From the sequence record NZ_CP115194.1: 51,160 nucleotides of DNA; one strand, 5' to 3'. Positions within the stretch are counted from its first letter, which is position 1. The number at the start of each line of letters is the position of its first letter. Below, in pieces: positions 1,314-47,534 of this stretch. Below the pieces are notes generated by a model, which did not search any database, was not told the DNA's origin, and was given only the letters and a program-made list of their open reading frames with translations. The stretch comes from a plasmid. The position numbers and the translations under genes were made by a program.

Positions 1314-1709
1314 CTACTCGCCGTACAGGGCGAGGAAGGCCTCGTGAACCGCCTCGAATGAGGCGGATGACAGCTCTCCCAAGGGTTGGTCGGCGTAGCC
1401 ACCAGCTGCTATCAGGACCTCGCCGTCGCTTGTCGAAAGCCGTGCGGCTGCGCGATGAACTGCGCACGCGCATTCGTATTCCCACTGCTCATGGATCTGA
1501 CTGTTCCCCACCCCCTCGAGGACGCTGGCCGCCAGGTCCTGGGCCAGAACATAGCGATCACGGTCGAAGACCAGGACCTGGCCAGCAATGTCCATGAGCT
1601 CGCCGCAGCTAGCACCACGCAGTTTCGCGAGCTGGTACCTGGACCAGCCGGACAGGCTCTCGCGGTATTGCCGCAGCCAGGCCAGATCCTCGAGGGTGAG
1701 CAGGCTCAT
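1314..1709 (-). CDS. hypothetical protein
   Basis: 131 aa ORF. Its start overlaps the upstream gene by 4 bp (ATGA), which suggests an operon. Confidence 0.45.
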   Translation of the reverse strand: MSLLTLEDLAWLRQYRESLSGWSRYQLAKLRGASCGELMDIAGQVLVFDRDRYVLAQDLAASVLEGVGNSQIHEQWEYECACAVHRAAARLSTSDGEVLIAAGGYADQPLGELSSASFEAVHEAFLALYGE

Positions 1710-2029
1710 TTCTCCTCCGGGATCGGCTGGCCAAGGCGGCGATAGGCTTCTTCGGCCGCGGCCTGGGCATCACTCTCCGTACCGGTGAAAGACGGTGAGT
1801 CCGTGCAGTAGGTACGGATCTTTTTCTTCCGCTTGTAGATCATCGGAGGCTGCCAGCACTTGGTCAGCACCTTCGGACATTCGCCGCCGGTGAAACCTGT
1901 AGTTGCACACATCATGTATGCGCCGCGCATGTCGTTCTTATCTTTCCACTTGAAGTCGTAGATCGAACTAGCGACTGCCGGCTGTGAAGTAACTGCGAAT
2001 AGTGCGAGTACCGGGACAATGATTTTCAT
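1706..2029 (-). CDS. small secreted Cys-containing protein; conjugation-cluster accessory
   Basis: N-terminal signal peptide MKIIVPVLALFAVTSQPAVA, 107 aa. It overlaps the downstream gene by 4 bp. Confidence 0.45.
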   Translation of the reverse strand: MKIIVPVLALFAVTSQPAVASSIYDFKWKDKNDMRGAYMMCATTGFTGGECPKVLTKCWQPPMIYKRKKKIRTYCTDSPSFTGTESDAQAAAEEAYRRLGQPIPEEK

Positions 2030-2808
2030 AATGCGCGCGCCTCCGCTGCCGCGAGTCCTGCCATGATTCGACTTACATAGTTCTGAGTTTCCTCATAGGG
2101 CGGTATTCCGCCGTACTTACGTACAGCCCCCTCCCCTGCGTTATATGCAGCGATCGTCAACTTCAAGTTGCCACCGAACGCCCGATACAGCCTGGCCAGG
2201 TGCTTCGTGCCGCCGCGGATGTTCGACTCGGGGTCGAACGGGTCGACGCCGAACTCCTCGGACACCGCATCCATGAGCTGCATAAGTCCCTTCGCCCCCT
2301 TCGGACTGACGGCTGCGGGGTTGAATCGCGACTCTTCATGGATCATCAACGTCACCAGGGTCGGACTCATACGCACCTGGTGCGCGTAGCGCTGTATCAG
2401 CCCCGCATACGGCGCCGCCTTGGCCGCCATCGAGGCAGGCACAACCAGGCCCGCCTGCGGCTCCTCGGCAAGATCCCATAGCCGAATGGCACCGTCCCAG
2501 TCGTCAGATGCCGGCGGCGCCGGCGGTCGAGCCTGTTGTGCCGGTTGCTCGTCGAAGGCCTTGAAAGCCCCCTTGAGCTCCTGCAACTGGTCCGAACGCC
2601 AGGGCGTTGCCGAGTCGTCGCCAAGGCTGCTCAGCGCATTGCGCTGGGCGGCCATCGGCGCCGGCGGTGCGGAGAACAGGAAGTCGTACAGCGCCTGCTC
2701 GTCCTCAGCCGCCTGCAGGGCGGGCATTGTGAAGGCCGCGACCAACACCAGGACCGCCTTACTTGAGCGCTTGCGGGAACGCACTGTAGCGATACGTGAC
2801 GGGTTCAT
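2026..2808 (-). CDS. lytic transglycosylase, SLT domain (VirB1-like)
   Basis: Carries the GLMQLM and AYNAGEGAV motifs typical of the soluble lytic transglycosylase family. It has an N-terminal signal-like segment and sits inside the T4SS operon. Confidence 0.8.
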   Translation of the reverse strand: MNPSRIATVRSRKRSSKAVLVLVAAFTMPALQAAEDEQALYDFLFSAPPAPMAAQRNALSSLGDDSATPWRSDQLQELKGAFKAFDEQPAQQARPPAPPASDDWDGAIRLWDLAEEPQAGLVVPASMAAKAAPYAGLIQRYAHQVRMSPTLVTLMIHEESRFNPAAVSPKGAKGLMQLMDAVSEEFGVDPFDPESNIRGGTKHLARLYRAFGGNLKLTIAAYNAGEGAVRKYGGIPPYEETQNYVSRIMAGLAAAEARAL

Positions 2809-2959
2809 TGTCCACCCCTACCGGCCGGGTCAGGTCGCGTGAAATGACGTTGCGCTGCTGCAACTGGAAGAACTCACCGGTGCCCTCGATCTTGGTACTC
2901 GAGCACCCGGCCAGAGCCAGCAGCGCGGCGGTCGCGAGAATCGTCTTGGTCTTCATCAC
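2759..2959 (-). CDS. small lipoprotein (VirB7/TrbH-like position)
   Basis: Begins MMKTKTILATAALLALAGCSS, giving a lipobox LAGC. It is 66 aa and overlaps the downstream gene by 4 bp. Confidence 0.55.
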   Translation of the reverse strand: MMKTKTILATAALLALAGCSSTKIEGTGEFFQLQQRNVISRDLTRPVGVDNEPVTYRYSAFPQALK

Positions 2960-3330
2960 TTGCTCCCCGAGATCGAAACCAACTTGTGGTTGTGGTCCAC
3001 GATGACGTAGTTATCGACGCCGACCAGGAGCTGCAGCGCATCGATGACCGGCATGGTCCGATGGAGCTTCACGATCGGCGGGATCGCGCGATTGGCGAAC
3101 TTGATAGCGTCACTGGGCGCGGGGTACTGAGTGATGAACCGGTACCCGGTCGGCTCCAGCACATAGCGCGCGGCCTGGCCGATCGTCTTCACGTCCTCGG
3201 GCCAGGACGTCCGGACATACAGGCTCAGCGGATCTACATAGATGGGTTGTTGCGGCTGCTCGGCCGCAACCGAAAGCGCCGGCAACGCCATGATGGCGAG
3301 CAAGGCCTTAGTAATCAGCGAGTTCTTCAT
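2956..3330 (-). CDS. secreted T4SS-associated protein; its native upstream region has been replaced by the transposon end
   Basis: Signal peptide MKNSLITKALLAIMALPALSVAAE. Its ATG lies directly against the Tn3-family inverted repeat at 3331. Confidence 0.5.
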   Translation of the reverse strand: MKNSLITKALLAIMALPALSVAAEQPQQPIYVDPLSLYVRTSWPEDVKTIGQAARYVLEPTGYRFITQYPAPSDAIKFANRAIPPIVKLHRTMPVIDALQLLVGVDNYVIVDHNHKLVSISGSK

Positions 3331-3368
3331 GGGGAGCCCGCGGAATTCGGAAAAAATCGTACGCTAAG
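3331..3368 (+). repeat. Tn3-family 38 bp terminal inverted repeat (left)
   Basis: GGGG...ACGCTAAG, the hallmark ends of Tn3-family inverted repeats. Confidence 0.8.
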
Positions 3369-3474
3369 CCTCAATGCCTGCGCCGGCAGGCCTTTGCGTC
3401 TTGGCTCTGAGAATGAAGCCTCGGAACGGCTGAGATTGAACGTTCCCCAACTGCTTTATAGCTTTGGCGACAGA

Positions 3475-3750
3475 TCAGCGATCTTCACGGGTGTGCCACA
3501 GACGCAGCAGATAGATGGTAGAGCTCGCAATTTCGTAGCGCATCTCGTAATGCCCGACCAGAATCCGCCGCACGTCACGCGGATCGAACTCTTCCAGGCG
3601 CTCACCGATGCGCGGGTTGGCCAGCAGCTTAGTCGGTGCGCTCGTTAGTTGCTGCACGGTACGTGCCGCAGCGGGACGGTTCACAGCCGCCAGGAACTCA
3701 TATAGTCGAGTCAGATCGGACAGCCCCTTGTTCGTCCACTTCAACTCCAT
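3475..3750 (-). CDS. parE: ParE/RelE-family toxin
   Basis: 91 aa, beginning MELKWTNKGLSDLTRLYEFLAA and ending YLLRLWHTREDR. Its start overlaps the upstream antitoxin stop. Confidence 0.8.
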   Translation of the reverse strand: MELKWTNKGLSDLTRLYEFLAAVNRPAAARTVQQLTSAPTKLLANPRIGERLEEFDPRDVRRILVGHYEMRYEIASSTIYLLRLWHTREDR

Positions 3751-4022
3751 CAGCGCGGCACCGGCACCGGAGTGTCAGCACTAAGGCTATCGGCCCAGGC
3801 CTGGACTGCCTGATGGTCAATCACGCAGCCGGCATCCACATCAACCAGAGCCTCGCGGGTCAGGCGGCTACGCTCGTCTTCCTGGTCGAGCCAGGCTGTA
3901 AGAGCCTGCTTGACGATCCAGTTCTTGGAGCGCTCCAGGCGCTCTGCGATGTCATCGACTCGTTCGGCCAACTCTATGGGGACATGGGCGGTGACAGATC
4001 TGGTTTTGGCGTTAGCGGGCAT
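3750..4022 (-). CDS. parD: ParD/CopG ribbon-helix-helix antitoxin
   Basis: 90 aa. The N-terminal RHH fold (VTAHVPIELAERVDDIAERLERSKNWIVKQAL) is followed by a toxin-neutralising tail. Confidence 0.8.
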   Translation of the reverse strand: MPANAKTRSVTAHVPIELAERVDDIAERLERSKNWIVKQALTAWLDQEDERSRLTREALVDVDAGCVIDHQAVQAWADSLSADTPVPVPR

Positions 4023-4224
4023 GATGGTTACCTGCGGCTCGATTTAAAATTAATCATAATAAATAAAATAGAAGCGTCAAGCATGAATGTCAGATTGAAC
4101 TATACCCTAACCGGATGTCAGATAAGGTCGCGCGGCTCCGTCAGAATAGAGTCCACTTTCGCGTTCTTTGACACATGCCCGCGAAGGTCATAGATTTCAG
4201 CCTGACAAAATCGTTCAGGGCGCA
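4023..4224. promoter_or_regulatory. putative res site / divergent promoter region between parD and tnpR
   Basis: AT-rich 200 bp region, contrasting with the 60% GC surroundings, with repeated TGTCAGAT-like half-sites. It lies where res sits in Tn3-family elements. Confidence 0.4.
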
Positions 4225-4839
4225 ATGGAACCAAAAACCAACGTAAGCCCTTACCCCCATCCAACCCATGGAGGCATCTTGCAGGGACACCGTATCGGCT
4301 ATGTCCGGGTTAGCAGCTTCGACCAGAACCCGGAACGCCAACTGGAACAGACCCAGGTGAGCAAGGTGTTCACCGACAAAGCCTCGGGCAAGGACACTCA
4401 GCGTCCCCAACTCGAAGCGCTGCTGAGCTTCGTCCGCGAGGGCGACACCGTGGTGGTGCACAGCATGGATCGCCTGGCCCGCAACCTTGATGACTTGCGC
4501 CGCCTGGTGCAGAAGCTGACCCAGCGCGGTGTGCGTATCGAGTTCCTGAAAGAGGGCCTGGTCTTCACGGGCGAGGACTCGCCCATGGCCAACCTGATGC
4601 TTTCGGTGATGGGGGCCTTCGCCGAGTTTGAGCGTGCACTGATCCGCGAGCGGCAGCGCGAGGGCATTACCCTGGCCAAGCAGCGCGGCGCGTACCGGGG
4701 CCGCAAAAAGGCCCTGTCCGACGAGCAGGCAGCTACCCTGTGGATGCGGGCAGCGGCCGGTGAGCCCAAGGCTCAGCTCGCCCGCGAGTTCAACATCAGC
4801 CGGCAGACCCTCTACCAGTACCTCCGCACGAACGAGTGA
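4225..4839 (+). CDS. tnpR: Tn3-family serine resolvase
   Basis: Contains GYVRVSSFDQN (catalytic Ser) and a C-terminal HTH (ISRQTLYQYL). Start set at the internal ATG at 4225. Confidence 0.8.
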   Translation: MEPKTNVSPYPHPTHGGILQGHRIGYVRVSSFDQNPERQLEQTQVSKVFTDKASGKDTQRPQLEALLSFVREGDTVVVHSMDRLARNLDDLRRLVQKLTQRGVRIEFLKEGLVFTGEDSPMANLMLSVMGAFAEFERALIRERQREGITLAKQRGAYRGRKKALSDEQAATLWMRAAAGEPKAQLAREFNISRQTLYQYLRTNE

Positions 4840-4909
4840 GCTGCAATGCAGGTAACACCTTCTGTCGCGTAGAACCAACCAGATTCAAAGAGTTTAGCTC
4901 GGACGCTTC

Positions 4910-6142
4910 ATGCACGAAGGTATCGAAGCCGTACCCGATAGTGATGTGCCCCTGAACTATTGCTACGGTTTTCGCTCTCTGCCCGGCAGCGAGTTCGTTG
5001 CGAGCGACGAAATCTGTATTTATCTCCTGTCCATACAGGAACTGCATGTTGGCCTGAAGGGCCTCAACCTTTTGACCTATGCCAAGCTGTCCTGGCTGCA
5101 AGCCTGGCACATCCGCGACGAAACCTATTCGGCGGCCCTGGCCGAGTTGGTCAATCATCAATACCGCCATGTTTTTGCCGCTCACTGGGGGGACGGCACT
5201 ACCTCATCCTCCGATGGCCAGCGCTTCCGGGCTGGCGGCCGGGGCGAGAGTACCGGGCACGTCAATCCGAAGTACGGCAGCGAGCCGGGGCGGTTGTTTT
5301 ACACCCATATCTCCGACCAGTACGCGCCGTTCAGCACCCGCGTGGTGAATGTCGGCGTGCGCGACTCCACCTATGTGCTCGACGGCTTGCTGTACCACGA
5401 GTCCGACCTGCGGATCGAGGAGCACTACACCGACACGGCTGGCTTCACCGATCACGTCTTCGCCCTGATGCACCTGCTGGGCTTCCGCTTCGCACCACGC
5501 ATCCGCGACCTCGGTGAAGCCAGGCTGTATGTGCCGCAGGGCGTGCAGGCCTACCCGACGCTGAGGCCGATGATAGGCGGCACCCTGAACATCAAGCACG
5601 TGCGCGCCCATTGGGATGACATCCTGCGCCTGGCCAGTTCGATCAAGCAGGGCACCGTCACCGCCTCACTGATGCTGCGCAAGCTCGGCAGCTATCCGCG
5701 CCAGAATGGCCTGGCCGTCGCCCTGCGCGAGCTGGGCCGGATCGAACGCACGCTGTTTATTCTCGACTGGCTGCAAAGCGTCGAGCTGCGCCGCCGCGTG
5801 CATGCCGGATTGAACAAAGGTGAGGCGCGCAACTCCCTGGCCAGGGCGGTGTTCTTCAACCGTCTAGGGGAAATCAGGGATCGCAGCTTCGAGCAGCAGC
5901 GCTACCGGGCCAGCGGCCTCAACCTGGTGACGGCGGCCATCGTGCTGTGGAACACAGTGTACCTGGAGCGCGCCACCCAGGCGGTGGGCGACATGGGCAA
6001 GCCGGTGGACGGCGATCTGCTGCAATACCTGTCGCCGCTGGGCTGGGAACACATCAGCCTGACCGGCGATTACGTCTGGCGGCAGAGCCGCAGGCTGGAA
6101 GACGGGAAGTTCAGGCCGCTACGGCTACCCGGAAAACCTTAG
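4910..6142 (+). pseudogene. tnpA: Tn3-family transposase, C-terminal 410 aa only (the N-terminal ~580 aa are deleted)
   Basis: Contains [15 protein letters not shown] and the C-terminal [12 protein letters not shown] motifs of Tn3 TnpA. Only 1.2 kb lies between tnpR and the inverted repeat, whereas a full tnpA is ~3 kb. Confidence 0.8.
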
Positions 6143-7571
6143 CGTACGATTTTTTCCGAATTCTGCGGGCTCCCCTTTCATAGACGTGCTTCCAGGGTTT
6201 GACGTAGACGTCATCCTCGAACGAGACATAGAAGGTCTGCCCGGGGCGGATAGTGACGGTGGGGACGATGTTGAGGTACTTCTGGACCAGGCTCGAAGCC
6301 TGCCGGCGACTGCTGTCGCCGACGTCGCCGGCGAACGTCGAATCGTTGTCGGAGCCAGATCCGGAGCGACTGGTCGAGCTGCCGATCAGCGCGTAGGCCG
6401 CCACTCCCAGGAACTGGGACAGCAGGTGATAGTCCACCTGGTCCGCGATCGCGGCGACCCCTTCGCGGTCCAGGCCGGCGGCCTTGGACAGGTCGATCTT
6501 GTTGCCACCTGGTAGGATTACCCAATCGTTGGTGATGCCCATCCGGTGCTGGATGGCCTCGTTGACGTTGCCGGCCTTGTGCACACGCATGATGATCTCG
6601 GAGCCTTTCGGGATCGCCACGTACTGCCGGGTAATGTCGTAGACGTCTCGGCTGACCAGCCCCTTGAGCTGGCCACCCTGGAAGTCGCTGACGCCCTTGC
6701 GCATGAACTGGGCCGGGATCTCGGTGCCGGGAGGCAGCTTGAGCATGCCCTCGATATCTGCGTTGTAGGCATTCTCCTTCGTGTATCCGACAACATCGGT
6801 CGGCGCCGGCGTGAAGGTTTTCTTCACCTGCTCGAGTTCCTCGCGCTTCTGCGCCAGGAAGGAAGGCTCTTCACCAGGCGGCGCGGACTGAAGCTCTTTC
6901 CGCAAGCGTTCTGCGGCCTCGATCCGCTGCCGCAAGTCCTTGCGGCGCGCTTCGAGGCTGCCCCCGGTCTGGGTCGGCGAATTCAGCAGGTTCTGAGCCT
7001 CGGCCGCAGAGGTCGAATATGGGCCTCGACTGGCAACGGCCACTCCTGCGCCGCCGCGCTGAGCCTTCGCCACCGCATCGGTGTAGCCCCAAGGGCTCTG
7101 AGCGCTCTTCAGAGCGCGCATGCGCTCCTCACTGCGCCACTTCGCGTAAGCCTTCTGTTCTGCAGAAGGCTCGCGCGCCTTGCCCTTGCCCTGGCTCGCC
7201 TTGCTCGTGTCGTCACGGCCCTGGAACTGCGACCAAGCCTGCTGCCCCGTTGTCTTCAGCTCGCCGGCGGCCTCGTCCACTTGTTCCTGGAACGAGTTGC
7301 GCTCGGACAGCCGCGATTGCTGCCGGGAAACGAGATCTCCGAACTGGCTGGCCCCTGCTCCCATGTTCGAGGACTGCCGTTGCTGCTGCCGCTGCTCGGC
7401 CGCTGACTGTCGGGACCCACTGCCGCCGTTGGCTTTGAACCAGATGAAGTTGAGCACAAGGGCAACCAGGATCAGCCCGATCGAGGCCAAGAGCCAGCGC
7501 TGTAGCTTCGTCCTGTGCGCGGCCGGGCGCTCCCGGATCCGCGGCTGTGCTTCGTCAGCCATGGTGGTCAC
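6111..7571 (-). CDS. VirB10/TrbI-like T4SS protein; its 3' end is disrupted by the Tn3-family insertion, so the last ~21 codons read into the inverted repeat
   Basis: N-terminal TM segment, a Gln/Pro-rich linker, and a C-terminal conserved domain (…[19 protein letters not shown]…[11 protein letters not shown]…). The native frame, reconstructed across the insertion, ends KHVYEELADY, overlapping the ATG of the next gene. Confidence 0.6.
6138..6175 (-). repeat. Tn3-family 38 bp terminal inverted repeat (right)
   Basis: Reverse complement is GGGGAGCCCGCAGAATTCGGAAAAAATCGTACGCTAAG. Confidence 0.8.
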
Positions 7572-13855: not shown

Positions 13856-15132
13856 CTAAGCGAGTCTCAAGGCCTTCACTGCTTCAGCGATAGCCTTGTC
13901 TACGTCTCCAGGATATTTGGCGAACATCTCTCGGATTACTGGCTGTTCACTGGGCGAGCTGGTCGAGACGACATACTGCTCTGGCTCGACGTTCAGCTGG
14001 ACCACCTGGGCTATATCCGCCTCGGGCTGCCAGATTAACATCTCGCGCTGCGGTCGAAGGGACTCAATGCCGTCAACGATTCCGTCGCTCGCTCCGAAGA
14101 CCGTCTTGTAATGAGATCTCATCTCGGTCGACATTTTCGGCTCTGCCCCGAACAGGAACGTGGTAGCTGCACCGCGTAGCATCTGCCAGTCGGGTATGGC
14201 CGCGTAGTGCTGAGGGCTCTGTGTCCACAGCGTGATTCCGGCGTTCCACTTGTTCCAGGTTCGGACCTTTGCAAGCAGGAACTGCACTGCTCCTGGAACG
14301 TCCAGGAAGTACTGACACTCATCGATCTGCAGCTGTTTGATGCGATCTACCAGCTTTGGATCTTCGAATAGCCTGGTCACCCTGAAAAAGATTTCGGTCT
14401 GGGCGAGCGCTGCGAGCCTATGGTCGTCCTTCAGGCCGCTCAAGTTGTAGATGCCCATCCGCCTACCAAAGGTGCCCAACCCATCTATCTCGTTGTCGAA
14501 CAGGTTGCCGTATATTCCCGGGCGCACCCAGCGCTCCAGCTTCTGCTTAAGGCTTTTCGGGAAGTGGCTATACAGGCCCGAGAGGGTCCGCATGCTGGCC
14601 TCATCAACCCGCAGGATGTCACGGATCGCCCTATCGAGATCAGCCTGTTCATCCTTATCGATCGAACGCAGATCCGCCGACTCGTTGAGTTCGAACATGA
14701 TCCGCAACAGGTGCAGTAGATGCCCTACGAATAACCCGTCCTTCTCCTTCAAAGCCGGATCAGCCGAGAAGAACGCGTTGAAACCGTGACTCGTCGCAGG
14801 GTCCGTGATGCGGAATACTCCCGCATCAGATCCGAAGAAAGCGGCCATCGCCTCGGCACCAGCATCAACACCAATATCCTGGTACAGCCCTCCGAACTTC
14901 ATGAAGTGGCTCGCGATAGAATTCTTCGCGAACGTCTTGCCGGATCGAGTGGGGCCAGTTGCAATAACCAGGCCCTTGTCCGCCAGAAACTCCGAGTACC
15001 CGAAAGCGCAGTTGTCGCGCGTCTGAAGAATGTAGGTGGGTTCCTCCTTAGCCGAGCCCCAGGAGGTCACCCCCTTTTGCGACTTGAATGCGATAGACGT
15101 CGCGCCGGCCTGGCTGCTCGTGAACTCCACCG
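13856..15132 (-). pseudogene. trbE: VirB4/TrbE ATPase, C-terminal half (split by the IS21-family element)
   Basis: Walker A motif GPTRSGKT. The frame joins the N-terminal half precisely once the IS and one ACCG copy are removed, giving 850 aa in total. Confidence 0.75.
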
Positions 15133-15302
15133 TGTCAACAGCAACTCAGAAGTGACCCACCTTGGTGTTTGAACAGCAATTAGGAATTGACCCACCTGGA
15201 GTGTTTTCTAAGCAGCGGCAGTCCCTAGACACGGGTCAAGGCAGTTGCTGGGCGGCAACCTGATTTGACCCAGGGTCAAGTTCACCTGCTGGTCAGCGAT
15301 TT

Positions 15303-17197
<1,895 letters not shown>

Positions 17198-17220
17198 TCA
17201 TTTTCAATGTGCTGCTGACA

Positions 17221-18500
17221 ACCGCACGCATCGACTTCTTCGCGTAGCCGGGAAGCAGGGTCGGGAATAGCTCTATCAGCCCGGCCGACTCCCATACGGC
17301 CGTGAGGCTACTCTCGGTCAAAGCGGTGTGCATCTCTGCGCACGCGCTCTTGAGCTCAAGCGGATTCTCGTTCCACACCACAACATGCGAGTTATACGAG
17401 CCCCAGCGATCCGGGGTGTTCGCCGCATCATCAAGTTCTTTGACCTTCTTGCGGAGGTGATCGCTGTTTTTGAGCTTTTCCTCCATGCCGCTATTCGGGT
17501 TCTCACCGGTGAGAATCGCAGACAGCTTCATGTTCTGCCGGGCCAACTCGTTCGCCTTGTTCCGCAGCAGCATTGACAGCCCGGCCTTGCTGTACGGCAC
17601 CCAGCGGTTGACTACCAGGTAGTTGCCTTTCTGCATCAGCGGGGAGCGCTGAGTCTGGATCCAGATTCCCTCCGGAACGTAACGACCGCCATAGGCGATG
17701 ATGCTCGCGATCCGCGCGTAAACCGGACGGGGACCGTGGAACTTCAGGCAGGTCATGCCGTCGATCTCGACCGGCTCGATGCCCCCGTTGGAAAGAAGGG
17801 CGTCCCAGTTCTCGACCGGCACCTCCTCATGCACCGCACTGTCGAGCAGTGATGGGTTCATGTTCACCAGGGCTCGGTGAAGCGCCCATAGAGACTGGAG
17901 ATTCATGGTGGAGGACCGAGGCGACACCAGCTCCGACCGGCTGGACAGATCTTTCAGACTCGCCTCAAGGAGGTCGGCCTGACGCTGCAACTGCCGCTCT
18001 TCCGCGATCCATGCGTCATGGTTCCGGAACCGCTGCACCAATAGCAGACGGCTTTCCGCCTCGAAGGGCGCTTGAAACAAGTGCTTCAGCATCCCGACGC
18101 TGAGCAGGTTGTTTACATGTTCCTCCGCCGGGCACTCCAACAGCCAGAACAAGCGCGAGTCATTCAGCCGCTGTGAGTTCAGGAAGCGGGAGCGCCGCTT
18201 CGAAAGCAGGTCACTCCGCGGGTCGTCCCGCTCGCGCAATGCAACCCCTTTACCCTCGAAGTGAAAGTAGTACTGGCAGAGGCTCAGGGATGGGTGGAGG
18301 CTCTGGTAAAGGGCGCGCTGAACACTGGAGAACAATCGCCGATCATGTTCTCCCAGGGCTGTCGGGTCGGTCCCACCCATCTCAATACCGCTCAACAGCG
18401 AACCCGCGTAGGTCAGGCAGAATTTCTTCCACACACCTGCCGAGTACAGCTTGCTGTTCAACGGCTCGACCCGCTTTGGCTCCCCCTGATAGCGCCCCAT
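17221..18500 (-). pseudogene. trbE: VirB4/TrbE ATPase, N-terminal half (interrupted by the IS21-family element; the ORF reads on into the IS terminus)
   Basis: Begins MGRYQGEPKRVEPLNSKLYSAGVWKKF…GSLLSGIEMGGTDP, a VirB4-type N-terminus. The ATG is 2 bp after the pilin-gene stop. Confidence 0.7.
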
Positions 18501-24235: not shown

Positions 24236-24907
24236 GGCCCTCGGAAACAGCCGCAAGCTGTTTCCGCAGGGCAGTCGGGTACAGGTGTTTGATTACGACG
24301 AGCTTTTGTCGCCGATAGCTGCACAGGGCGGTGAAGCTCTCCGGCTCTTGCGAAACAGCCACAAGCTGTTTCGATTGGGCGCCCTGGCACGCAGTGTAGG
24401 GAACGGCGCTTGACCAAGCGAGCGAGCAAGTCAGCCGCCTGTAAAGGCCGGCGCAGACGATGCGAAGTGAAGCGCAGGGCGAAGCCGTCGAGCGAGGCAA
24501 AGTCGGCGCCCAGCTTTTCCGAAACAGCCAGAAGCTGTTTCGGGGGGAGCCCGGCAACGCGCTTCAGGTGACGACGCTTCGCCGAGCAAGCGAGCGAGCC
24601 CAGCCGCCCGAACGGGTCGGCGAGGGCAATGCGATGCGCGGCGATGGCGGAGCCGTCGAGCGAAGGTCGGCAGGCTCCCCTGCTCTTCGGAACAGCCAAA
24701 AGCTGTTCCGGCTTTTCCGAAACAGCCAGAAGCTGTTTCGGGGGGCGCCCAGTAACTCGGCCCAGGTGACGACGCTTCGCCGAGCAAGCGAGCGAGCCCA
24801 GCCGCCCGAACGGGTCGGCGAGGGCAATGCGATGCGCGGCGATGGCGGAGCCGTCGAGCGAAGGTCGGCAGGCGCCCCGCTCTCCGGAACAGCCAAAAGC
24901 TGTTCCG
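24236..24907. repeat. array of 8 hairpin motifs GRAACAGC-N5-GCTGTTYC, including a ~197 bp tandem duplication (24520-24716 / 24717-24905)
   Basis: Copies at 24236, 24262, 24351, 24522, 24694, 24719, 24743 and 24887. The spacing is irregular. The ORFs called here are artefacts of the repeats. Confidence 0.6.
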
Positions 24908-25214
24908 GCAGCGCGCGGCCCAGTTCGCGTCAGCGAGGTGGGCCGAAACAAACAGAAGCCTGACAGATGCGAGACGCGCCCACGCGGCTCGCAAGGCACC
25001 GAGGCCCCCCAGGGCCGAATGCCGGTCTGCTCCAGGGACGGCCGTCCAGGCCGGGACCTGGAGTGCGAAGCATCAGGCGACGTGCAGCGCGCGCCCGTCT
25101 GCGCTCGACTACTGAAGCCCGCCAGGGCTGAAGTCGGCGAGAGCGGACCCCCGGGTTCCGGGGTGGAGCAGCTGAGCAAGGGACGGGAGAAGGACCGCGG
25201 CGAAGAGTTGCGGG

Positions 25215-25361
25215 CCCCCGGGGGTTGGGGTTCCCCCCCCCCCGGGGGGGGGGGGGGGGGGGAGAGGGGTGGGCCCCCCCCCCGGGGGGGGGCCCCACAG
25301 GGGGGGCGCCTCCGGGGGGGGGGGTTCCCCCCCCCCCGGCCCCCCCCTGGGGGGGGGGGGG
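25215..25361. repeat. tract of alternating long poly-G and poly-C homopolymer runs (up to ~24 nt)
   Basis: Read directly from the sequence, runs such as ccccccccccgggggggggggggggggggg. This is possibly an assembly or sequencing artefact, or else a hypermutable structure-forming tract. Confidence 0.7.
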
Positions 25362-25437
25362 CCCTCTTTACGATAGCGATGCAAGCGGCCTAACGGTGGT
25401 TGCGACTTGGGTAAGGCGCGCCGCAATCATCGTGTTT

Positions 25438-43510: not shown

Positions 43511-43786
43511 ATGAGCACAGCAGCCAAACCAACGCGCACCGTGACTGCTCACGTCCCGGTAGATCTGGCCGAGCGCGTCGATGCAATCGCCGAGCGCCTG
43601 GAGCGATCGAAGAACTGGATCGTCAGGCAGGCGCTGTCAGCCTGGATCGACCAGGAAGACGAGCGCAGCCGTCTGACACGTGAAGCCCTGGATGATGTAG
43701 ACGCAGGACGTGTCGTCGATCACCAGGCCGTGCAGGCCTGGGCCGAGAGCTTGGGCACTGACTCTCCGCTGCCGGTACCACGCTGA
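43511..43786 (+). CDS. parD: ParD/CopG RHH antitoxin (second, diverged copy)
   Basis: Starts MSTAAKPTRTVTAHVPVDLAERVDAIAERLERSKNWIVRQAL. ~85% aa identity to the copy at 3750-4022. Confidence 0.8.
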   Translation: MSTAAKPTRTVTAHVPVDLAERVDAIAERLERSKNWIVRQALSAWIDQEDERSRLTREALDDVDAGRVVDHQAVQAWAESLGTDSPLPVPR

Positions 43787-44061
43787 TGGAGTTGAAGTGG
43801 ACGAGCAAAGGGCTCTCCGACGTGGCACGGCTCTACGAGTTCCTGGCTACGGTGAACAAGGAAGCTGCCGCCCGCACGGTGCAGCAGCTGACGAGCGCGC
43901 CGACCGCCTTGTTGACCAACCCGCGGCTGGGCGAGCGCCTGGAAGAGTTCGAACCGCGGGATGTTCGCCGCATCCTGATCGGCCATTATGAGATGCGCTA
44001 TGAGATCCTGGATTCCTGCATCTACGTGCTTCGTCTGTGGCACACACGCGAAGACAGGTAG
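43786..44061 (+). CDS. parE: ParE/RelE toxin (second, diverged copy)
   Basis: Begins MELKWTSKGLSDVARLYEFLATVNKEAAART and ends YVLRLWHTREDR. Its start overlaps the antitoxin stop. Confidence 0.8.
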   Translation: MELKWTSKGLSDVARLYEFLATVNKEAAARTVQQLTSAPTALLTNPRLGERLEEFEPRDVRRILIGHYEMRYEILDSCIYVLRLWHTREDR

Positions 44062-45639: not shown

Positions 45640-46722
45640 TTACTCCTTGCTCTCGGAATCGCCCTTGGCGGGCTTGCGGGGCGTCTTGGCCTTGATCTTC
45701 GCGGGCTGTTGGACTGCGGCGCTACCGAGGCGGTCTAGCAGCTGAGCGTTGCTCTCCCGAAGACTATCAAGTTCACCTTCGGCGCGCGCGGCTCGTAGTC
45801 CAACCACCTGGGCTTCTTTGCGGGCGGCGTCACGTTCGCCCTGTACCCGGGTGAAGCGTTCCGCCTGAGCATGAGCCTCGGCAGCAGCGCGCTTGCGCTG
45901 TTCACTCGCGGCCTCTTCTGCTGCCTGCAAGCGATAGAGGTCCTTCATCGCCGTATCAAGACGATGCTGTAGGTCCTCGACACGGGCTGCCAGATCGTCG
46001 CGCTGGGCCTCCGCCCTGCCCTTCGCCTCAGCGAGTTCCGCCTTGGCCTTGTCGATCTCCTGGGCGGCCACAGCCTTGATCTGGTCCAGTTCGGTCTGAT
46101 GGATCTTACGGGCCGAAACCAGCTCGTTCCGCACCTCGGACAACTCGTCCCGGGCGCGTTGCAGCTCGATTTTCTGGTCCTCGACGCGGCGAGTGATTTC
46201 CTCGGTCCTTGCCTCGGCCGACTCTGCGCGGGACGTCTGCTGGGCCAGACTCTGGCGCAGCCCATCGATCACTAGAACCTGCTCCTCGAACGCCTGCTGC
46301 AAGGCCTGTTTGTCCTCGCGCAGCCGCTCCAGATCTCCTTGCTGCTCTTCGTACAACTGCGACAGTTCTATCCGGGTCGATTCAGCATCCGCCCTCTCCT
46401 GGTCCCACTCTGCCTCGGCCTTTCGCAGGCTCGCATTGGCCATATCCGTGGCAGCACTCCACAAGGCGGAGCCCAGGGTAAGTGCTTCCCTGTGCAGTTC
46501 AGGCGGCAGTTCCAGGTGGACCGGCTCAGGTTTGGCGGTTTGCAGATGCCGCCACTCTTTCATGACCCGTGTGACCGTGTTCATGTCCGCCCGGGCAGCC
46601 CGGCGTACCGCTTCCACCTGCGGGAAGCGCTCACGCCCCAGCTCTTCATAGAGGCGATCGGCCTCCCGGAAAACACGAGCCCGAACGTCTGCAACCTGGT
46701 CGTTACCTTCATGTTCCGACAT
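45640..46722 (-). CDS. kfrA: KfrA-like protein: N-terminal DNA-binding domain plus a long Ala/Glu/Arg-rich coiled coil
   Basis: The start ATG at 46720-46722 is preceded by a GGAGGA ribosome-binding site. The N-terminal ~80 aa are followed by ~280 aa of AEAR/QLE-type heptads, as in plasmid KfrA. Confidence 0.6.
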   Translation of the reverse strand: MSEHEGNDQVADVRARVFREADRLYEELGRERFPQVEAVRRAARADMNTVTRVMKEWRHLQTAKPEPVHLELPPELHREALTLGSALWSAATDMANASLRKAEAEWDQERADAESTRIELSQLYEEQQGDLERLREDKQALQQAFEEQVLVIDGLRQSLAQQTSRAESAEARTEEITRRVEDQKIELQRARDELSEVRNELVSARKIHQTELDQIKAVAAQEIDKAKAELAEAKGRAEAQRDDLAARVEDLQHRLDTAMKDLYRLQAAEEAASEQRKRAAAEAHAQAERFTRVQGERDAARKEAQVVGLRAARAEGELDSLRESNAQLLDRLGSAAVQQPAKIKAKTPRKPAKGDSESKE

Positions 46723-46745
46723 AAGTCCTCCGAAGGGGGGATAAG

Positions 46746-46779
46746 ATAATAATAAGAATAGCATTATTCTTATTATTAT
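46746..46779. promoter_or_regulatory. AT-rich palindrome upstream of kfrA, a putative operator
   Basis: 14 bp perfect inverted arms ATAATAATAAGAAT / ATTCTTATTATTAT with a 6 bp spacer, 24-57 bp upstream of the kfrA start. Confidence 0.4.
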
Positions 46780-46807
46780 GAAATCAATATGCGACCGCTT
46801 GTCGATT

Positions 46808-46932
46808 ACATCAGCCTGACCGGCGATTACGTCTGGCGGCAGAGCCGCAGGCTGGAAGACGGGAAGTTCAGGCCGCTACGGCTACCCGGAAAACCTTAGC
46901 GTACGATTTTTTCCGAATTCTGCGGGCTCCCC
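46808..46932 (+). mobile_element. Tn3-family remnant: the last ~85 bp of tnpA plus a 38 bp terminal inverted repeat (solo end)
   Basis: 46808-46932 is near-identical to 6051-6175, in the same orientation. Nothing upstream of it resembles tnpA. Confidence 0.75.
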
Positions 46933-47534
46933 TAGGAAGCGAAGCCGATGCCGCCGAAGCAATCGGGCGTCAGGATCTGGCTGGCCAGGCTCTCGCTGAA
47001 ACCCTGCGCAACCAAGGCGGCGTGCCGAGCCTCGAGGGTCTTGTGCTTCCGGATCACCTGGTTGGCGGCCTTCATACGTTGCTGGTTCGCCTCCAACTGC
47101 TGCAACTCGGCCTGGAGCTTCTCGATGGCGTCCGGGTCGTCACTCGAGATTCCCCCGGTCCCCACGGCCGCGGCCTTCTGCTCGTAGTGCTTCGCCTTGT
47201 CCTGCAGCGCGAATGCCTTGCCGTAAGTGCTGTGGATCCGGTCGCGGTACCGCCGGTCCCGCCCTTCGCTGTGATGCCCTACCAGGATCGGTTGTCCGAA
47301 AGGGATAGCGCTGGCCATGGTCTTCGCTCGCTGGTAGAGCGCGCCGCTCTCGTCTGAAATCTTCGCTGCACGTTCCTGGAGGCGTTCCCTCCGATCGGCG
47401 AGCTTCTGTTCGTACCAGTTCAGCTCGCGGCCAACCTGCTCGGGGCTCACGTCCTGCCCTACCCGGGTTGCTTTGCTAGATGCTTCTTGAGCCGGCTCTT
47501 GCTCTGGCTGTTGCTTATGCTCTTCGTGATGCAT
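46932..47534 (-). CDS. hypothetical protein. Its stop codon is formed at the edge of the Tn3-family inverted repeat.
   Basis: Start MHHEEHKQQ, preceded by the AGGAGACC ribosome-binding site. The GQPILVGHHSE segment is present. The TAG stop overlaps the last base of the inverted repeat. Confidence 0.45.
   Translation of the reverse strand: MHHEEHKQQPEQEPAQEASSKATRVGQDVSPEQVGRELNWYEQKLADRRERLQERAAKISDESGALYQRAKTMASAIPFGQPILVGHHSEGRDRRYRDRIHSTYGKAFALQDKAKHYEQKAAAVGTGGISSDDPDAIEKLQAELQQLEANQQRMKAANQVIRKHKTLEARHAALVAQGFSESLASQILTPDCFGGIGFAS

What the first reader, a model, noticed from the sequence alone, without database searches (positions are those of the whole stretch)
3326..6181. Tn5501-like parDE transposon, lacking most of tnpA, inserted precisely in the overlapping stop/start of two T4SS genes
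- A 2.85 kb Tn3-family element with 38 bp GGGG…ACGCTAAG inverted repeats carries parE-parD, an AT-rich res-like region, tnpR and only the last 410 codons of tnpA. It therefore cannot transpose on its own.
- Removing it, together with one copy of the flanking TTCAT, restores a native junction in which the virB10-like ORF ends …KHVYEELADY-TAA while the next gene starts at an overlapping ATG (tATGAAGAAC…).
- The insertion therefore replaced the last 5 codons of the VirB10-like protein with 21 inverted-repeat-encoded residues.
- It also stripped the downstream gene of its coupled translation context.
- Toxin-antitoxin (TA) modules next to res are a known feature of Tn3-family elements. A deletion derivative retaining only TA, res and resolvase, frozen inside a T4SS operon, is unusual.
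Basis: partly seen in the sequence, partly recalled or inferred. Interest (0 to 1): 0.55.

Follow-up and report, generated by a model that had tools for sequence, protein, structure and literature searches.

The report
Defective parDE transposon inside plasmid T4SS operon
A 2.85-kb crippled Tn1721/TnAs1-type transposon (toxin-antitoxin, res site and resolvase, no working transposase) has recently hopped into the conjugation operon of a Pseudomonas aeruginosa plasmid, almost certainly with a borrowed transposase. This is a well-documented but ordinary mobile-element event.

Summary
Window 3331-6175 is a 2,845-bp Tn3-family element with 38-bp inverted repeats (37/38). It carries parE-parD, a res region, tnpR and a tnpA remnant. 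It sits between two copies of TTCAT, with one extra T at 6176.

Removing it restores, base for base, the uninterrupted junction of P. aeruginosa plasmid pF052_2; 24 further related plasmids also match across it uninterrupted. There virB10 ends ...KHVYEELADY* and overlaps the next gene by 23 nt.

Two parts of the interpretation fail.
- **Not Tn5501-like.** TnpA is 21-22% identical, TnpR 35% and ParE 29%. The element is Tn1721/TnAs1-type: TnpA and TnpR are 96% identical and the right repeat is 38/38 identical to Tn1721's.
- **Not "frozen".** The same deleted forms (2,845/2,832 and 4,706 bp, derived from a 7,261-bp parent) occur at six or more sites. Three other sites have perfect 5-bp duplications, so the element is probably moved in trans.

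Only 356 tnpA codons survive, not 410. Likely donor-type plasmids co-reside with empty-site plasmids in two strains.

An IS21-family element independently splits a second gene of the same T4SS cluster.

It is a new member of a known kind and of modest interest.

The parts
3326..3330 (.). Left copy of the target-site duplication, TTCAT. On the minus strand it reads ATGAA and supplies the ATG of the downstream gene.
   Evidence: The flanks overlap by these 5 nt on the empty-site plasmid pF052_2.
3331..3368 (+). Left 38-bp terminal inverted repeat (IRL), GGGGAGCCCGCGGAATTCGGAAAAAATCGTACGCTAAG.
   Evidence: 37/38 complementary to IRR. (one mismatch to the Tn1721 repeat).
3475..3750 (-). parE toxin gene (91 aa).
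   Evidence: Pfam ParE_toxin, E 1.3e-15, full-length match. It is 84.6% identical to the ParE next to a TnAs1-type module in pCF39S.
3750..4022 (-). parD-type ribbon-helix-helix antitoxin gene (90 aa). Its stop overlaps the parE start by 1 nt.
   Evidence: Pfam RHH_1, E 1e-8. Coordinates.
4053..4080 (-). Promoter-like site (TTGACG, 16 nt spacer, TATGAT) pointing into parD-parE and onward toward the downstream T4SS genes.
   Evidence: Consensus scan, 10/12 matches. This is a prediction only.
4088..4210 (+). res region, homologous to the res regions of Tn1721 and Tn501. Homology to those transposons begins here, at TGTCAG.
   Evidence: Alignment A1. The megablast matches to TnAs1-type elements start at query position ~757-759, which is window ~4087-4089.
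4279..4839 (+). tnpR serine resolvase (186 aa, TTG start, GGAGG 4 nt upstream).
   Evidence: Pfam Resolvase plus HTH_7. It is 95.7% identical to TnAs1-type TnpR. The same coordinates are annotated in pF077_2.
4839..5078 (-). A 240-bp internal fragment of the parent transposon's pesticin-like muramidase passenger gene, left between the two deletion junctions.
   Evidence: blastn against the 7,261-bp parent: element 1509-1748 equals parent 3370-3609. Parent annotation.
5072..6142 (+). tnpA remnant, codons 633-988 of 988. The N-terminal DNA-binding part and the first 53 positions of the DDE_Tnp_Tn3 profile are missing.
   Evidence: The Pfam match starts at profile position 54.
4910..6142 (+). Fusion ORF of 410 codons: ~54 non-tnpA codons followed by 356 tnpA codons.
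6138..6175 (-). Right 38-bp terminal inverted repeat (IRR), 38/38 identical to the Tn1721 IRR.
6176..6176 (.). Extra T between IRR and the duplication. It is absent from the empty site.
6177..6181 (.). Right copy of the target-site duplication, TTCAT.
6111..7571 (-). VirB10/TrbI-like gene, now chimeric. The native ...YEELADY* is replaced by ...YE plus [21 protein letters not shown]. The TrbI domain (residues 279-455) is untouched.
2956..3330 (-). Downstream 124-aa secreted protein, weakly PilL-like. It keeps its ATG, but its upstream sequence is now the inverted repeat and has no Shine-Dalgarno motif.
   Evidence: (TIGR03748, E 3.8e-8, below cutoff).
46808..46932 (+). Solo relic of the same transposon's right end: 87 bp of the tnpA 3' end plus IRR, followed by T at 46933. 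It lies beside a KfrA-like gene and belongs to the plasmid backbone.
   Evidence: The relic is also present in pF052_2.

Best explanation
**What it is.** Window 3331-6175 is a non-autonomous, doubly deleted derivative of a 7,261-bp Tn3-family transposon of the Tn1721/TnAs1 type. It is 2,845 bp long. The parent has this order: IRL, parE-parD, res, tnpR, three passenger genes (a hypothetical gene, DUF3218 and a pesticin-like muramidase), tnpA, IRR.

**How it arose.** One deletion removed parent positions 3610-6157, giving a 4,706-bp form. A second removed 1510-3369, giving the 2,845-bp form. What remains is both ends, the toxin-antitoxin pair, res, the resolvase and a dead 356-codon tnpA tail.

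**How it got here (inferred).**
- A transposase supplied in trans acted on the two 38-bp ends of a copy on a co-resident pF077_2/pF052_1-type plasmid. The source would be the full-length element or another Tn1721/Tn501/TnAs1-type element.
- Replicative transposition fused donor and target plasmids.
- The element's own TnpR/res resolved the cointegrate.
- This left a copy in a pF052_2-type ("type I", pT1-like) conjugative plasmid, flanked by a TTCAT duplication.

**Local consequences.**
- Shown from the sequence: VirB10 loses 5 C-terminal residues and gains 21, with its TrbI domain intact. The downstream PilL-like gene keeps its ATG but loses its GGAAG Shine-Dalgarno sequence and its 23-nt overlap coupling.
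- Inferred: parDE is co-oriented with the operon and no terminator-like site follows parE. Transcription of the distal genes may therefore continue from the parDE promoter or by read-through.

The event is recent, because the flanks are 100% identical to pF052_2.
For: - **Insertion and empty site.**
- **Anatomy.**
- **Parent and two deletions.** See (blastn against the 7,261-bp element of NZ_CP150133.1; its annotation).
- **Tn1721/TnAs1 type.** TnpA is 96.3% and TnpR 95.7% identical to the TnAs1-type proteins. IRR is 38/38 identical to the Tn1721 IRR. The res regions align.
- **Mobility of the defective forms.** They occur at six sites:
  - this site;
  - the KfrA-side site, 7,261 and 2,845 bp, no duplication;
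  - the AACAG/AACAG site, 4,706 bp;
  - the TGGTA/TGGTA site, 4,706 and 2,845-type;
  - the ATATC/ATATC site, 2,832 bp (2,845-type);
  - L023, with no duplication.
- **No local transposase.** The window contains no intact Tn3-family tnpA.
- **Co-residence of donor-type and empty-target plasmids.** Strain F052 carries pF052_1 and pF052_2. Strain PaLo502 carries CP075789, CP075790 and CP075791.
- **Precedent.** Trans-mobilised, transposase-less Tn3-family elements, including one carrying res and tnpR, giving 5- or 6-bp duplications, are documented in Pseudomonas (PMC4133298).
- **Expression signals.** The promoter and terminator scan is.
Against: - No transposase source is visible in the window, and the host chromosome is not available.
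- The duplication is not clean, because of the extra T at 6176.
- At the TGGTA site both the 4,706-bp and the 2,845-type forms occur (L016 against L022). Recombination between copies, or recurrent deletion, therefore also shapes these elements, and that could mimic movement of the 2,845-bp form.
- The KfrA-side copy, the presumed donor, has no duplication of its own.
- All expression effects are inferred from sequence.
Confidence: 0.8

Rival explanations
1. An autonomous full-length (7,261-bp) copy inserted here by itself. It was later reduced to 2,845 bp by homologous recombination or gene conversion with a deleted copy on a co-resident plasmid, or by the same deletions recurring in place.
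For: - At the TGGTA site both the 4,706-bp form (L016) and the 2,845-type form (L022) occur with the same flanks. This shows that copies at one site can change form.
- Arms of 1,509 and 1,104 bp of perfect homology are available for recombination.
Against: - No full-length copy is seen at this site or at any of the three clean-duplication sites. Only the KfrA-side site has one.
- Each site would need an extra conversion step.
- The deletion junctions have little or no microhomology, so identical recurrence is unlikely.
Confidence: 0.12
2. One reading: a Tn5501-like parDE transposon remnant that is immobile ("frozen") in the T4SS operon.
For: - The gene order (toxin, antitoxin, res, tnpR, tnpA) matches the Tn5501 configuration in PMC7157771, Table 1.
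- The element lacks a functional tnpA.
Against: - Identity to Tn5501.7 is 21-22% for TnpA, 35% for TnpR and 29% for ParE, with no ParD hit. Identity to the TnAs1-type proteins is 96%.
- Identical defective forms sit at several sites with 5-bp duplications.
Confidence: 0.04
3. Assembly artefact: a repeat shared with a co-resident plasmid was mis-joined into the T4SS plasmid.
For: - The same element is 100% identical on plasmids that co-reside with this backbone.
- The junction was found in no other collection.
Against: - Both junctions fall at the exact ends of the 38-bp repeats.
- The 5-nt target TTCAT is duplicated. A mis-join would not create that.
Confidence: 0.03
4. The 38-bp repeats and their contents are native intergenic sequence of this T4SS cluster, not an insertion.
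For: None found.
Against: - Twenty-five related plasmids are uninterrupted at this junction, one of them 100% identical.
- The content is a complete Tn1721-type module.
Confidence: 0.01

Closest known systems
Tn1721/Tn1722 and TnAs1 (Tn3 family; close to Tn501)
   Same: - IRR is 38/38 and IRL 37/38 identical to the Tn1721 IRR.
- TnpA (both the remnant and the full-length parent) is 96% identical, and TnpR is 96% identical.
- The res region is homologous.
- tnpR and tnpA are co-directional.
   Different: - To the left of res it carries parE-parD instead of the genes found left of res in Tn1721 or Tn501.
- The parent has three passenger genes between tnpR and tnpA.
- The copy here has lost tnpA codons 1-632.
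Tn5501 and derivatives as catalogued in TnCentral (Lima-Mendez et al. 2020, PMC7157771)
   Same: - Same architecture: toxin and antitoxin genes immediately beside res, divergent from tnpR and tnpA.
- A ParE-family toxin paired with a ribbon-helix-helix antitoxin.
- A Pseudomonas plasmid habitat.
   Different: - It belongs to a different transposase lineage: TnpA 21-22% and TnpR 35% identical.
- The toxin-antitoxin pair is of a different lineage: ParE 29% identical, ParD not detectably similar.
TIME-RES and other non-autonomous Tn3-derived elements (Szuplewska et al. 2014, PMC4133298)
   Same: - No working transposase.
- 38-bp Tn3-family ends.
- Carries res plus a resolvase gene.
- Found at several sites with 5-bp (there 5- or 6-bp) duplications, in Pseudomonas plasmids.
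- Acts as a portable recombination and stabilisation module.
   Different: - It derives from a Tn1721/TnAs1-type parent, not a Tn5563-type one.
- It additionally carries a toxin-antitoxin pair and a tnpA stump.
- Mobility here is inferred from comparative data, not captured experimentally.
T4SS loss in type I (pT1) KPC plasmids of P. aeruginosa ST463 (PMC11659478)
   Same: - Matching plasmids from China (e.g. NZ_CP078000, 106.7 kb) fall within the size range of the KPC plasmid clade II of PMC12661517. I infer, without testing, that this backbone is the pT1/type I family.
- The T4SS is hit in both cases. In that study loss of the VirB region cut transfer by at least 1,000-fold and was associated with clonal success.
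   Different: - There the loss is a ~16-kb deletion. Here it is two insertions, this transposon and an IS21-family element.
- No phenotype is known for this plasmid.

Membership tests
Tn3-family transposon | ~38-bp terminal inverted repeats of the GGGG...ACGCTAAG type | tested here: met
   Arms 3331-3368 and 6138-6175 are 37/38 complementary. The right repeat is identical to the Tn1721 IRR.
Tn3-family transposon | 5-bp target-site duplication | tested here: met
   TTCAT lies at 3326-3330 and 6177-6181 and is single-copy in the empty site. There is one anomaly: an extra T at 6176.
Tn3-family transposon | Intact ~990-aa DDE transposase (autonomy) | tested here: not met
   Only residues 633-988 of 988 remain. 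The Pfam match starts at profile position 54. The element is therefore a non-autonomous derivative.
Tn3-family transposon | Site-specific resolution module (serine resolvase plus res) | tested here: met
   The element has Resolvase and HTH_7 domains. Its res region aligns with those of Tn1721 and Tn501. The three subsites were not mapped individually.
Tn1721/TnAs1 lineage | Near-identity of TnpA, TnpR, the inverted repeats and res | tested here: met
   TnpA is 96.3% identical, TnpR 95.7% and IRR 38/38. DNA identity is ~90% across tnpR-tnpA.
Tn5501 group (TnCentral sense) | Transposase, resolvase and toxin-antitoxin proteins identical or nearly identical to Tn5501 (PMC7157771) | tested here: not met
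   Compared with Tn5501.7, TnpA is 21-22% identical, TnpR 35% and ParE 29%; ParD gives no hit.
Tn5501 group (TnCentral sense) | Configuration <T <A tnpR> tnpA> with the toxin-antitoxin pair beside res | tested here: met
   Gene order and strands are shown. The configuration is defined in the table quoted.
ParDE type II toxin-antitoxin | ParE-fold toxin preceded by a small DNA-binding antitoxin in one operon | tested here: met
   The toxin matches ParE_toxin over its full length and the antitoxin matches RHH_1. The two genes overlap by 1 nt.
ParDE type II toxin-antitoxin | Toxicity and neutralisation | not testable with these tools
   This needs expression assays. Note that a backbone paralogue, 82-84% identical, lies at 43532-44058.
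Non-autonomous Tn3-derived elements (TIME / TIME-RES kind) | No functional transposase, yet copies at several sites each with a target duplication | tested here: met
   Six sites were found, and three others have perfect 5-bp duplications.
Non-autonomous Tn3-derived elements (TIME / TIME-RES kind) | Demonstrated transposition when transposase is supplied in trans | not testable with these tools
   This needs a trap-plasmid or mating-out assay.

The most novel reading that the evidence does not exclude
The 2.8-kb toxin-antitoxin / res / resolvase cassette is not mere debris. On this reading it is a selected, trans-mobilised "portable plasmid-maintenance module" that spreads among co-resident P. 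aeruginosa plasmids. Its landing in the T4SS operon, together with the IS21 hit on a second gene of that cluster, would reflect selection to silence a costly conjugation system while adding stability functions.
Probability: 0.2. Interest if true: 0.5.

Novelty: new member of a known kind. Interest (0 to 1): 0.3.

Why it matters
**Why it has some value**
- It is a clean natural example of a transposase-less Tn3-family element being moved between co-resident plasmids.
- Plasmids of the likely donor type, an empty target and the filled target are all identifiable.
- It adds a ParDE pair beside res to the Tn1721/TnAs1 lineage. The 2020 catalogue (PMC7157771) listed ParDE in its Tn3000, Tn3 and Tn4651 subgroups; whether the Tn1721/TnAs1 lineage falls outside those subgroups was not checked.
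- The plasmid backbone appears to belong to a family that carries blaKPC-2 in high-risk P. aeruginosa ST463, although that assignment was not tested. In that family T4SS loss changes transfer and fitness. Insertional hits on the T4SS are therefore relevant to plasmid epidemiology.

**Why the value is limited**
- Nothing here challenges current understanding of Tn3-family biology.

Tried and rejected
- **Tn5501 reference records.** I looked for JN648090, CP016447 and MF487840 in the plasmid collection and they are absent. I used Tn5501.7 (NZ_CP021651.1) and Tn5501.12 (NZ_CP017294.1) instead. They share one TnpA, WP_012077404.1. The Tn5501 label was rejected.
- **Search for the same insertion elsewhere.**
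  - The chimeric VirB10 (486-aa and 483-aa versions) is not on record.
  - The junction 31-mer is absent from metagenome and genome contigs.
- **Literature searches.**
  - Searches by plasmid accession or strain name returned nothing relevant.
  - No paper naming a TnAs1-type parDE transposon was found.
  - A search on target immunity for Tn1721/Tn501 gave nothing usable.
- **Identity of the IS21-interrupted gene.** I tried to confirm it as virB4. There is only a faint CagE_TrbE_VirB hit (E 0.09) and no PDB relative, so it is called "putative".
- **A site-specific cause for deletion 1.** I considered this because the junction lies exactly at the tnpR stop codon. The junction sequences show no meaningful repeat.
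- **A terminator after parE.** The scan found none on that strand.

Full report

Yes. A pair of 38-nt inverted repeats lies at 3331-3368 and 6138-6175, 37/38 complementary. Between them are these features:
- parE at 3475-3750(-), Pfam ParE_toxin, E 1.3e-15;
- a ribbon-helix-helix antitoxin at 3750-4022(-), overlapping parE by 1 nt;
- an AT-rich spacer (46% GC over 4023-4278, against 58% for the window);
- tnpR at 4279-4839(+), with Resolvase and HTH_7 domains;
- a 410-codon ORF at 4910-6142(+) matching DDE_Tnp_Tn3 from profile position 54 to the end.

TTCAT flanks both ends, at 3326-3330 and 6177-6181.

**2. Is it an insertion?**

Yes, and this is the decisive test.
- I joined 2700-3330 to 6182-6900 and searched the plasmid collection. 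The join matches P. aeruginosa plasmid pF052_2 (NZ_CP115229.1) at 100% over all 1,350 nt in one piece.
- Another 24 related ~50-kb P. aeruginosa plasmids match uninterrupted at 95.8-99.6%.
- A whole-sequence comparison shows that the window is a complete circular plasmid equal to pF052_2 plus three differences: this element, a 2,088-bp insertion at 15133-17220, and a small indel near 25.2-25.4 kb. The two flanks of the element overlap on pF052_2 by exactly the 5 nt TTCAT.
- In pF052_2 the VirB10/TrbI-like protein ends ...[13 protein letters not shown]. The next gene (124 aa) starts at an ATG 23 nt before that stop.

The site is a 23-nt overlap rather than a stop/start overlap.

**3. What is the element?**

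*It is not Tn5501.*
- TnCentral's Tn5501.7 (NZ_CP021651.1) and Tn5501.12 (NZ_CP017294.1) share one TnpA, WP_012077404.1.
- Against Tn5501.7, the proteins here are 21-22% (TnpA), 35% (TnpR) and 29% (ParE) identical. ParD gives no hit.
- The original Tn5501 of pPGH1 carries a tad-ata/Gp49 pair instead (PMC6896180, PMC7157771).

*It is Tn1721/TnAs1-type.*
- TnpA is 96.3% and TnpR 95.7% identical to the TnAs1-type proteins.
- The right repeat is 38/38 identical to the IRR next to tetR-tetA in a Tn1721 copy.
- The res region aligns with those of Tn1721 and Tn501 from TGTCAG at 4088 onward.
- Everything to the left of that point, including parDE and its AT-rich upstream region, is unrelated to those transposons. 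This is the pattern expected if the toxin-antitoxin module was exchanged at or near res, as proposed for other Tn3-family elements (PMC7157771).

**4. How was it made?**

A 7,261-bp full-length relative sits in plasmid NZ_CP150133.1. Its order is IRL, parE, parD, res, tnpR, then a hypothetical gene, a DUF3218 gene and a pesticin-C-terminus-like muramidase gene on the opposite strand, then a 988-aa tnpA, then IRR.

blastn gives the following correspondence:

| Element here | Parent | Content |
|---|---|---|
| 1-1509 | 1-1509 | IRL to the tnpR stop |
| 1509-1748 | 3370-3609 | internal piece of the muramidase gene |
| 1742-2845 | 6158-7261 | tnpA 3' end and IRR |

- Two deletions therefore occurred.
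- A 4,706-bp intermediate carrying only the second deletion exists in CP075790.1.
- Only tnpA codons 633-988 survive.
- The first ~54 codons of the "410-codon tnpA" are antisense muramidase sequence.
- The deletion junctions show little or no microhomology.

**5. Is it frozen?**

No. I looked up the exact 410-aa fusion protein and read the flanks at each place it occurs.

| Site | Form(s) | Flanks |
|---|---|---|
| This one (VirB10) | 2,845 bp | TTCAT / T+TTCAT |
| Beside a KfrA-like gene in pF077_2-type plasmids | 7,261 and 2,845 bp | TTCTT / TTAGC, no duplication |
| CP075790.1 and relatives | 4,706 bp | AACAG / AACAG |
| TrwC-relaxase plasmid | 4,706 bp (L016) and 2,845-type (L022) | TGGTA / TGGTA (right flank only for L022) |
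| L019 | 2,832 bp, 2,845-type | ATATC / ATATC |
| L023 | 4,706 bp plus an IS | no duplication |

- Three further perfect 5-bp duplications around elements that lack tnpA codons 1-632 are best explained by transposase acting in trans.
- That behaviour is established for Tn3-family elements and has been captured experimentally for transposase-less relatives in Pseudomonas, including one carrying res and tnpR, with 5- or 6-bp duplications (PMC4133298).
- The window itself contains no intact Tn3-family tnpA.
- The copy in pF077_2 is identical over all 2,845 bp.
- Plasmids of that type co-reside with empty-site plasmids of this window's type in strain F052 (pF052_1 and pF052_2). The same holds in strain PaLo502.
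- The simplest history is donor plasmid to cointegrate, then resolution by the element's own TnpR/res, leaving this copy.
- One caution: two forms occur at the single TGGTA site. Recombination between copies therefore also operates, so "full-length or 4,706-bp copy inserted, then converted" remains a minor rival.

**6. Consequences at the site**

*Shown from the sequence.*
- VirB10 now reads ...HVYE followed by [21 protein letters not shown]. Five residues are lost and 21 gained.
- About 13 of the new residues are encoded by the repeat and the rest by the antisense of the tnpA 3' end.
- The TrbI domain (residues 279-455) is untouched.
- The downstream gene keeps its ATG from the left TTCAT copy. 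Its upstream sequence changes from ...CCCTGGAAGCACGTCT|ATG to ...CCGCGGGCTCCCC|ATG. This removes the GGAAG motif and the overlap with virB10.

*Inferred.*
- parD-parE run in the same direction as the operon.
- A promoter-like site (TTGACG, 16 nt spacer, TATGAT; 4080-4053, minus strand) precedes them.
- No terminator-like site lies on that strand between parE and the downstream gene, or anywhere else in the element.
- Distal genes may therefore still be transcribed while the first of them is poorly translated.
- The flanks are 100% identical to pF052_2, so the event is recent and no decay has followed.

**7. Context that changes the reading**

- *A second hit on the T4SS.* An IS21-family element (istA 16106-17176, istB 15303-16106; Pfam rve and IstB_IS21) lies at 15133-17220 with a 4-bp duplication, ACCG. 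It splits an 850-aa protein that is intact in pF052_2. That protein follows a VirB2-like ORF and is only faintly VirB4-like. The T4SS cluster is thus hit twice.
- *The plasmid family.* Matching plasmids fall within the size range of the KPC plasmid clade II of PMC12661517. I infer, without testing, that these belong to the "type I" (pT1) family of PMC11659478. For that family the intact plasmid conjugates at about 0.38 per recipient, and loss of the VirB region cuts transfer by at least 1,000-fold and was associated with clonal success.
- *A relic of the same transposon.* The backbone already holds a solo relic of this transposon's right end (46808-46932, followed by T) beside a KfrA-like gene. 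That position corresponds to where the full element sits in pF077_2-type plasmids.
- *A parDE paralogue.* The backbone carries one at 43532-44058, 82-84% identical at the protein level.

**8. The extra T**

Both candidate sources of the right end have T immediately after the repeat. These are the KfrA-side copies (CCCC|TTAGC) and the relic (CCCC|TAGGA). The extra T could therefore be one donor nucleotide carried over by a cut 1 nt outside the end. Alternatively it could be a 6-bp duplication (CTTCAT) with one C-to-T change. The data do not decide between these.

**9. Verdict**

The name (Tn5501-like), the count of tnpA codons and the idea of a frozen, unusual relic are wrong. The element is a non-autonomous Tn1721/TnAs1-type parDE-res-tnpR element that has been moved repeatedly among P. 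aeruginosa plasmids. It is a new member of a known kind, useful as a well-documented example, and of modest interest.

Noticed in passing
window 15133-17220 (duplication ACCG at 15129-15132 and 17221-17224): An IS21-family insertion sequence (istA 356 aa, istB 267 aa) splits an 850-aa gene of the same T4SS cluster. That gene is intact in pF052_2 and is only faintly VirB4-like. This is a second, independent hit on the conjugation machinery.
   Followed up: partly
window 46808-46933: A solo relic of the same transposon's right end (87 bp of the tnpA 3' end plus a 38/38-identical IRR, then T) lies beside a KfrA-like gene (45737-46781). It is also present in the empty-site plasmid. The target plasmid therefore already carried an identical end when the new copy arrived, which bears on Tn3-family target immunity.
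   Followed up: partly
window 43532-44058 (+): The backbone carries a parD-parE paralogue 82-84% identical at the protein level to the transposon's pair. The plasmid thus has two closely related ParDE systems, and cross-neutralisation is possible.
   Followed up: no
window 6176: A single extra T lies between the right inverted repeat and the TTCAT duplication. It is either one donor-flank nucleotide carried over or a 6-bp duplication with one mismatch.
   Followed up: partly
L006 (NZ_CP150133.1 31684-38944); fragment at window 4839-5078: The full-length 7,261-bp parent carries a pesticin-C-terminus-like muramidase gene, a DUF3218 gene and a hypothetical gene between tnpR and tnpA. That is an unusual place for Tn3-family passenger genes and may be a bacteriocin/immunity module.
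   Followed up: no
L016 versus L022 (TGGTA site on a TrwC-relaxase plasmid): The 4,706-bp and 2,845-type forms occur at the same insertion site in different samples. This implies recombination between copies or a recurrent identical deletion.
   Followed up: partly
window ~24513-25369: A region of ~200-bp tandem repeats contains an indel relative to pF052_2: 147 bp here against ~868 bp there.
   Followed up: no
L001 6001-8845 and L006 (KfrA-side site): The presumed ancestral or donor copy (both the full-length and the 2,845-bp form) has no target-site duplication (TTCTT / TTAGC). This suggests a later rearrangement next to it.
   Followed up: no
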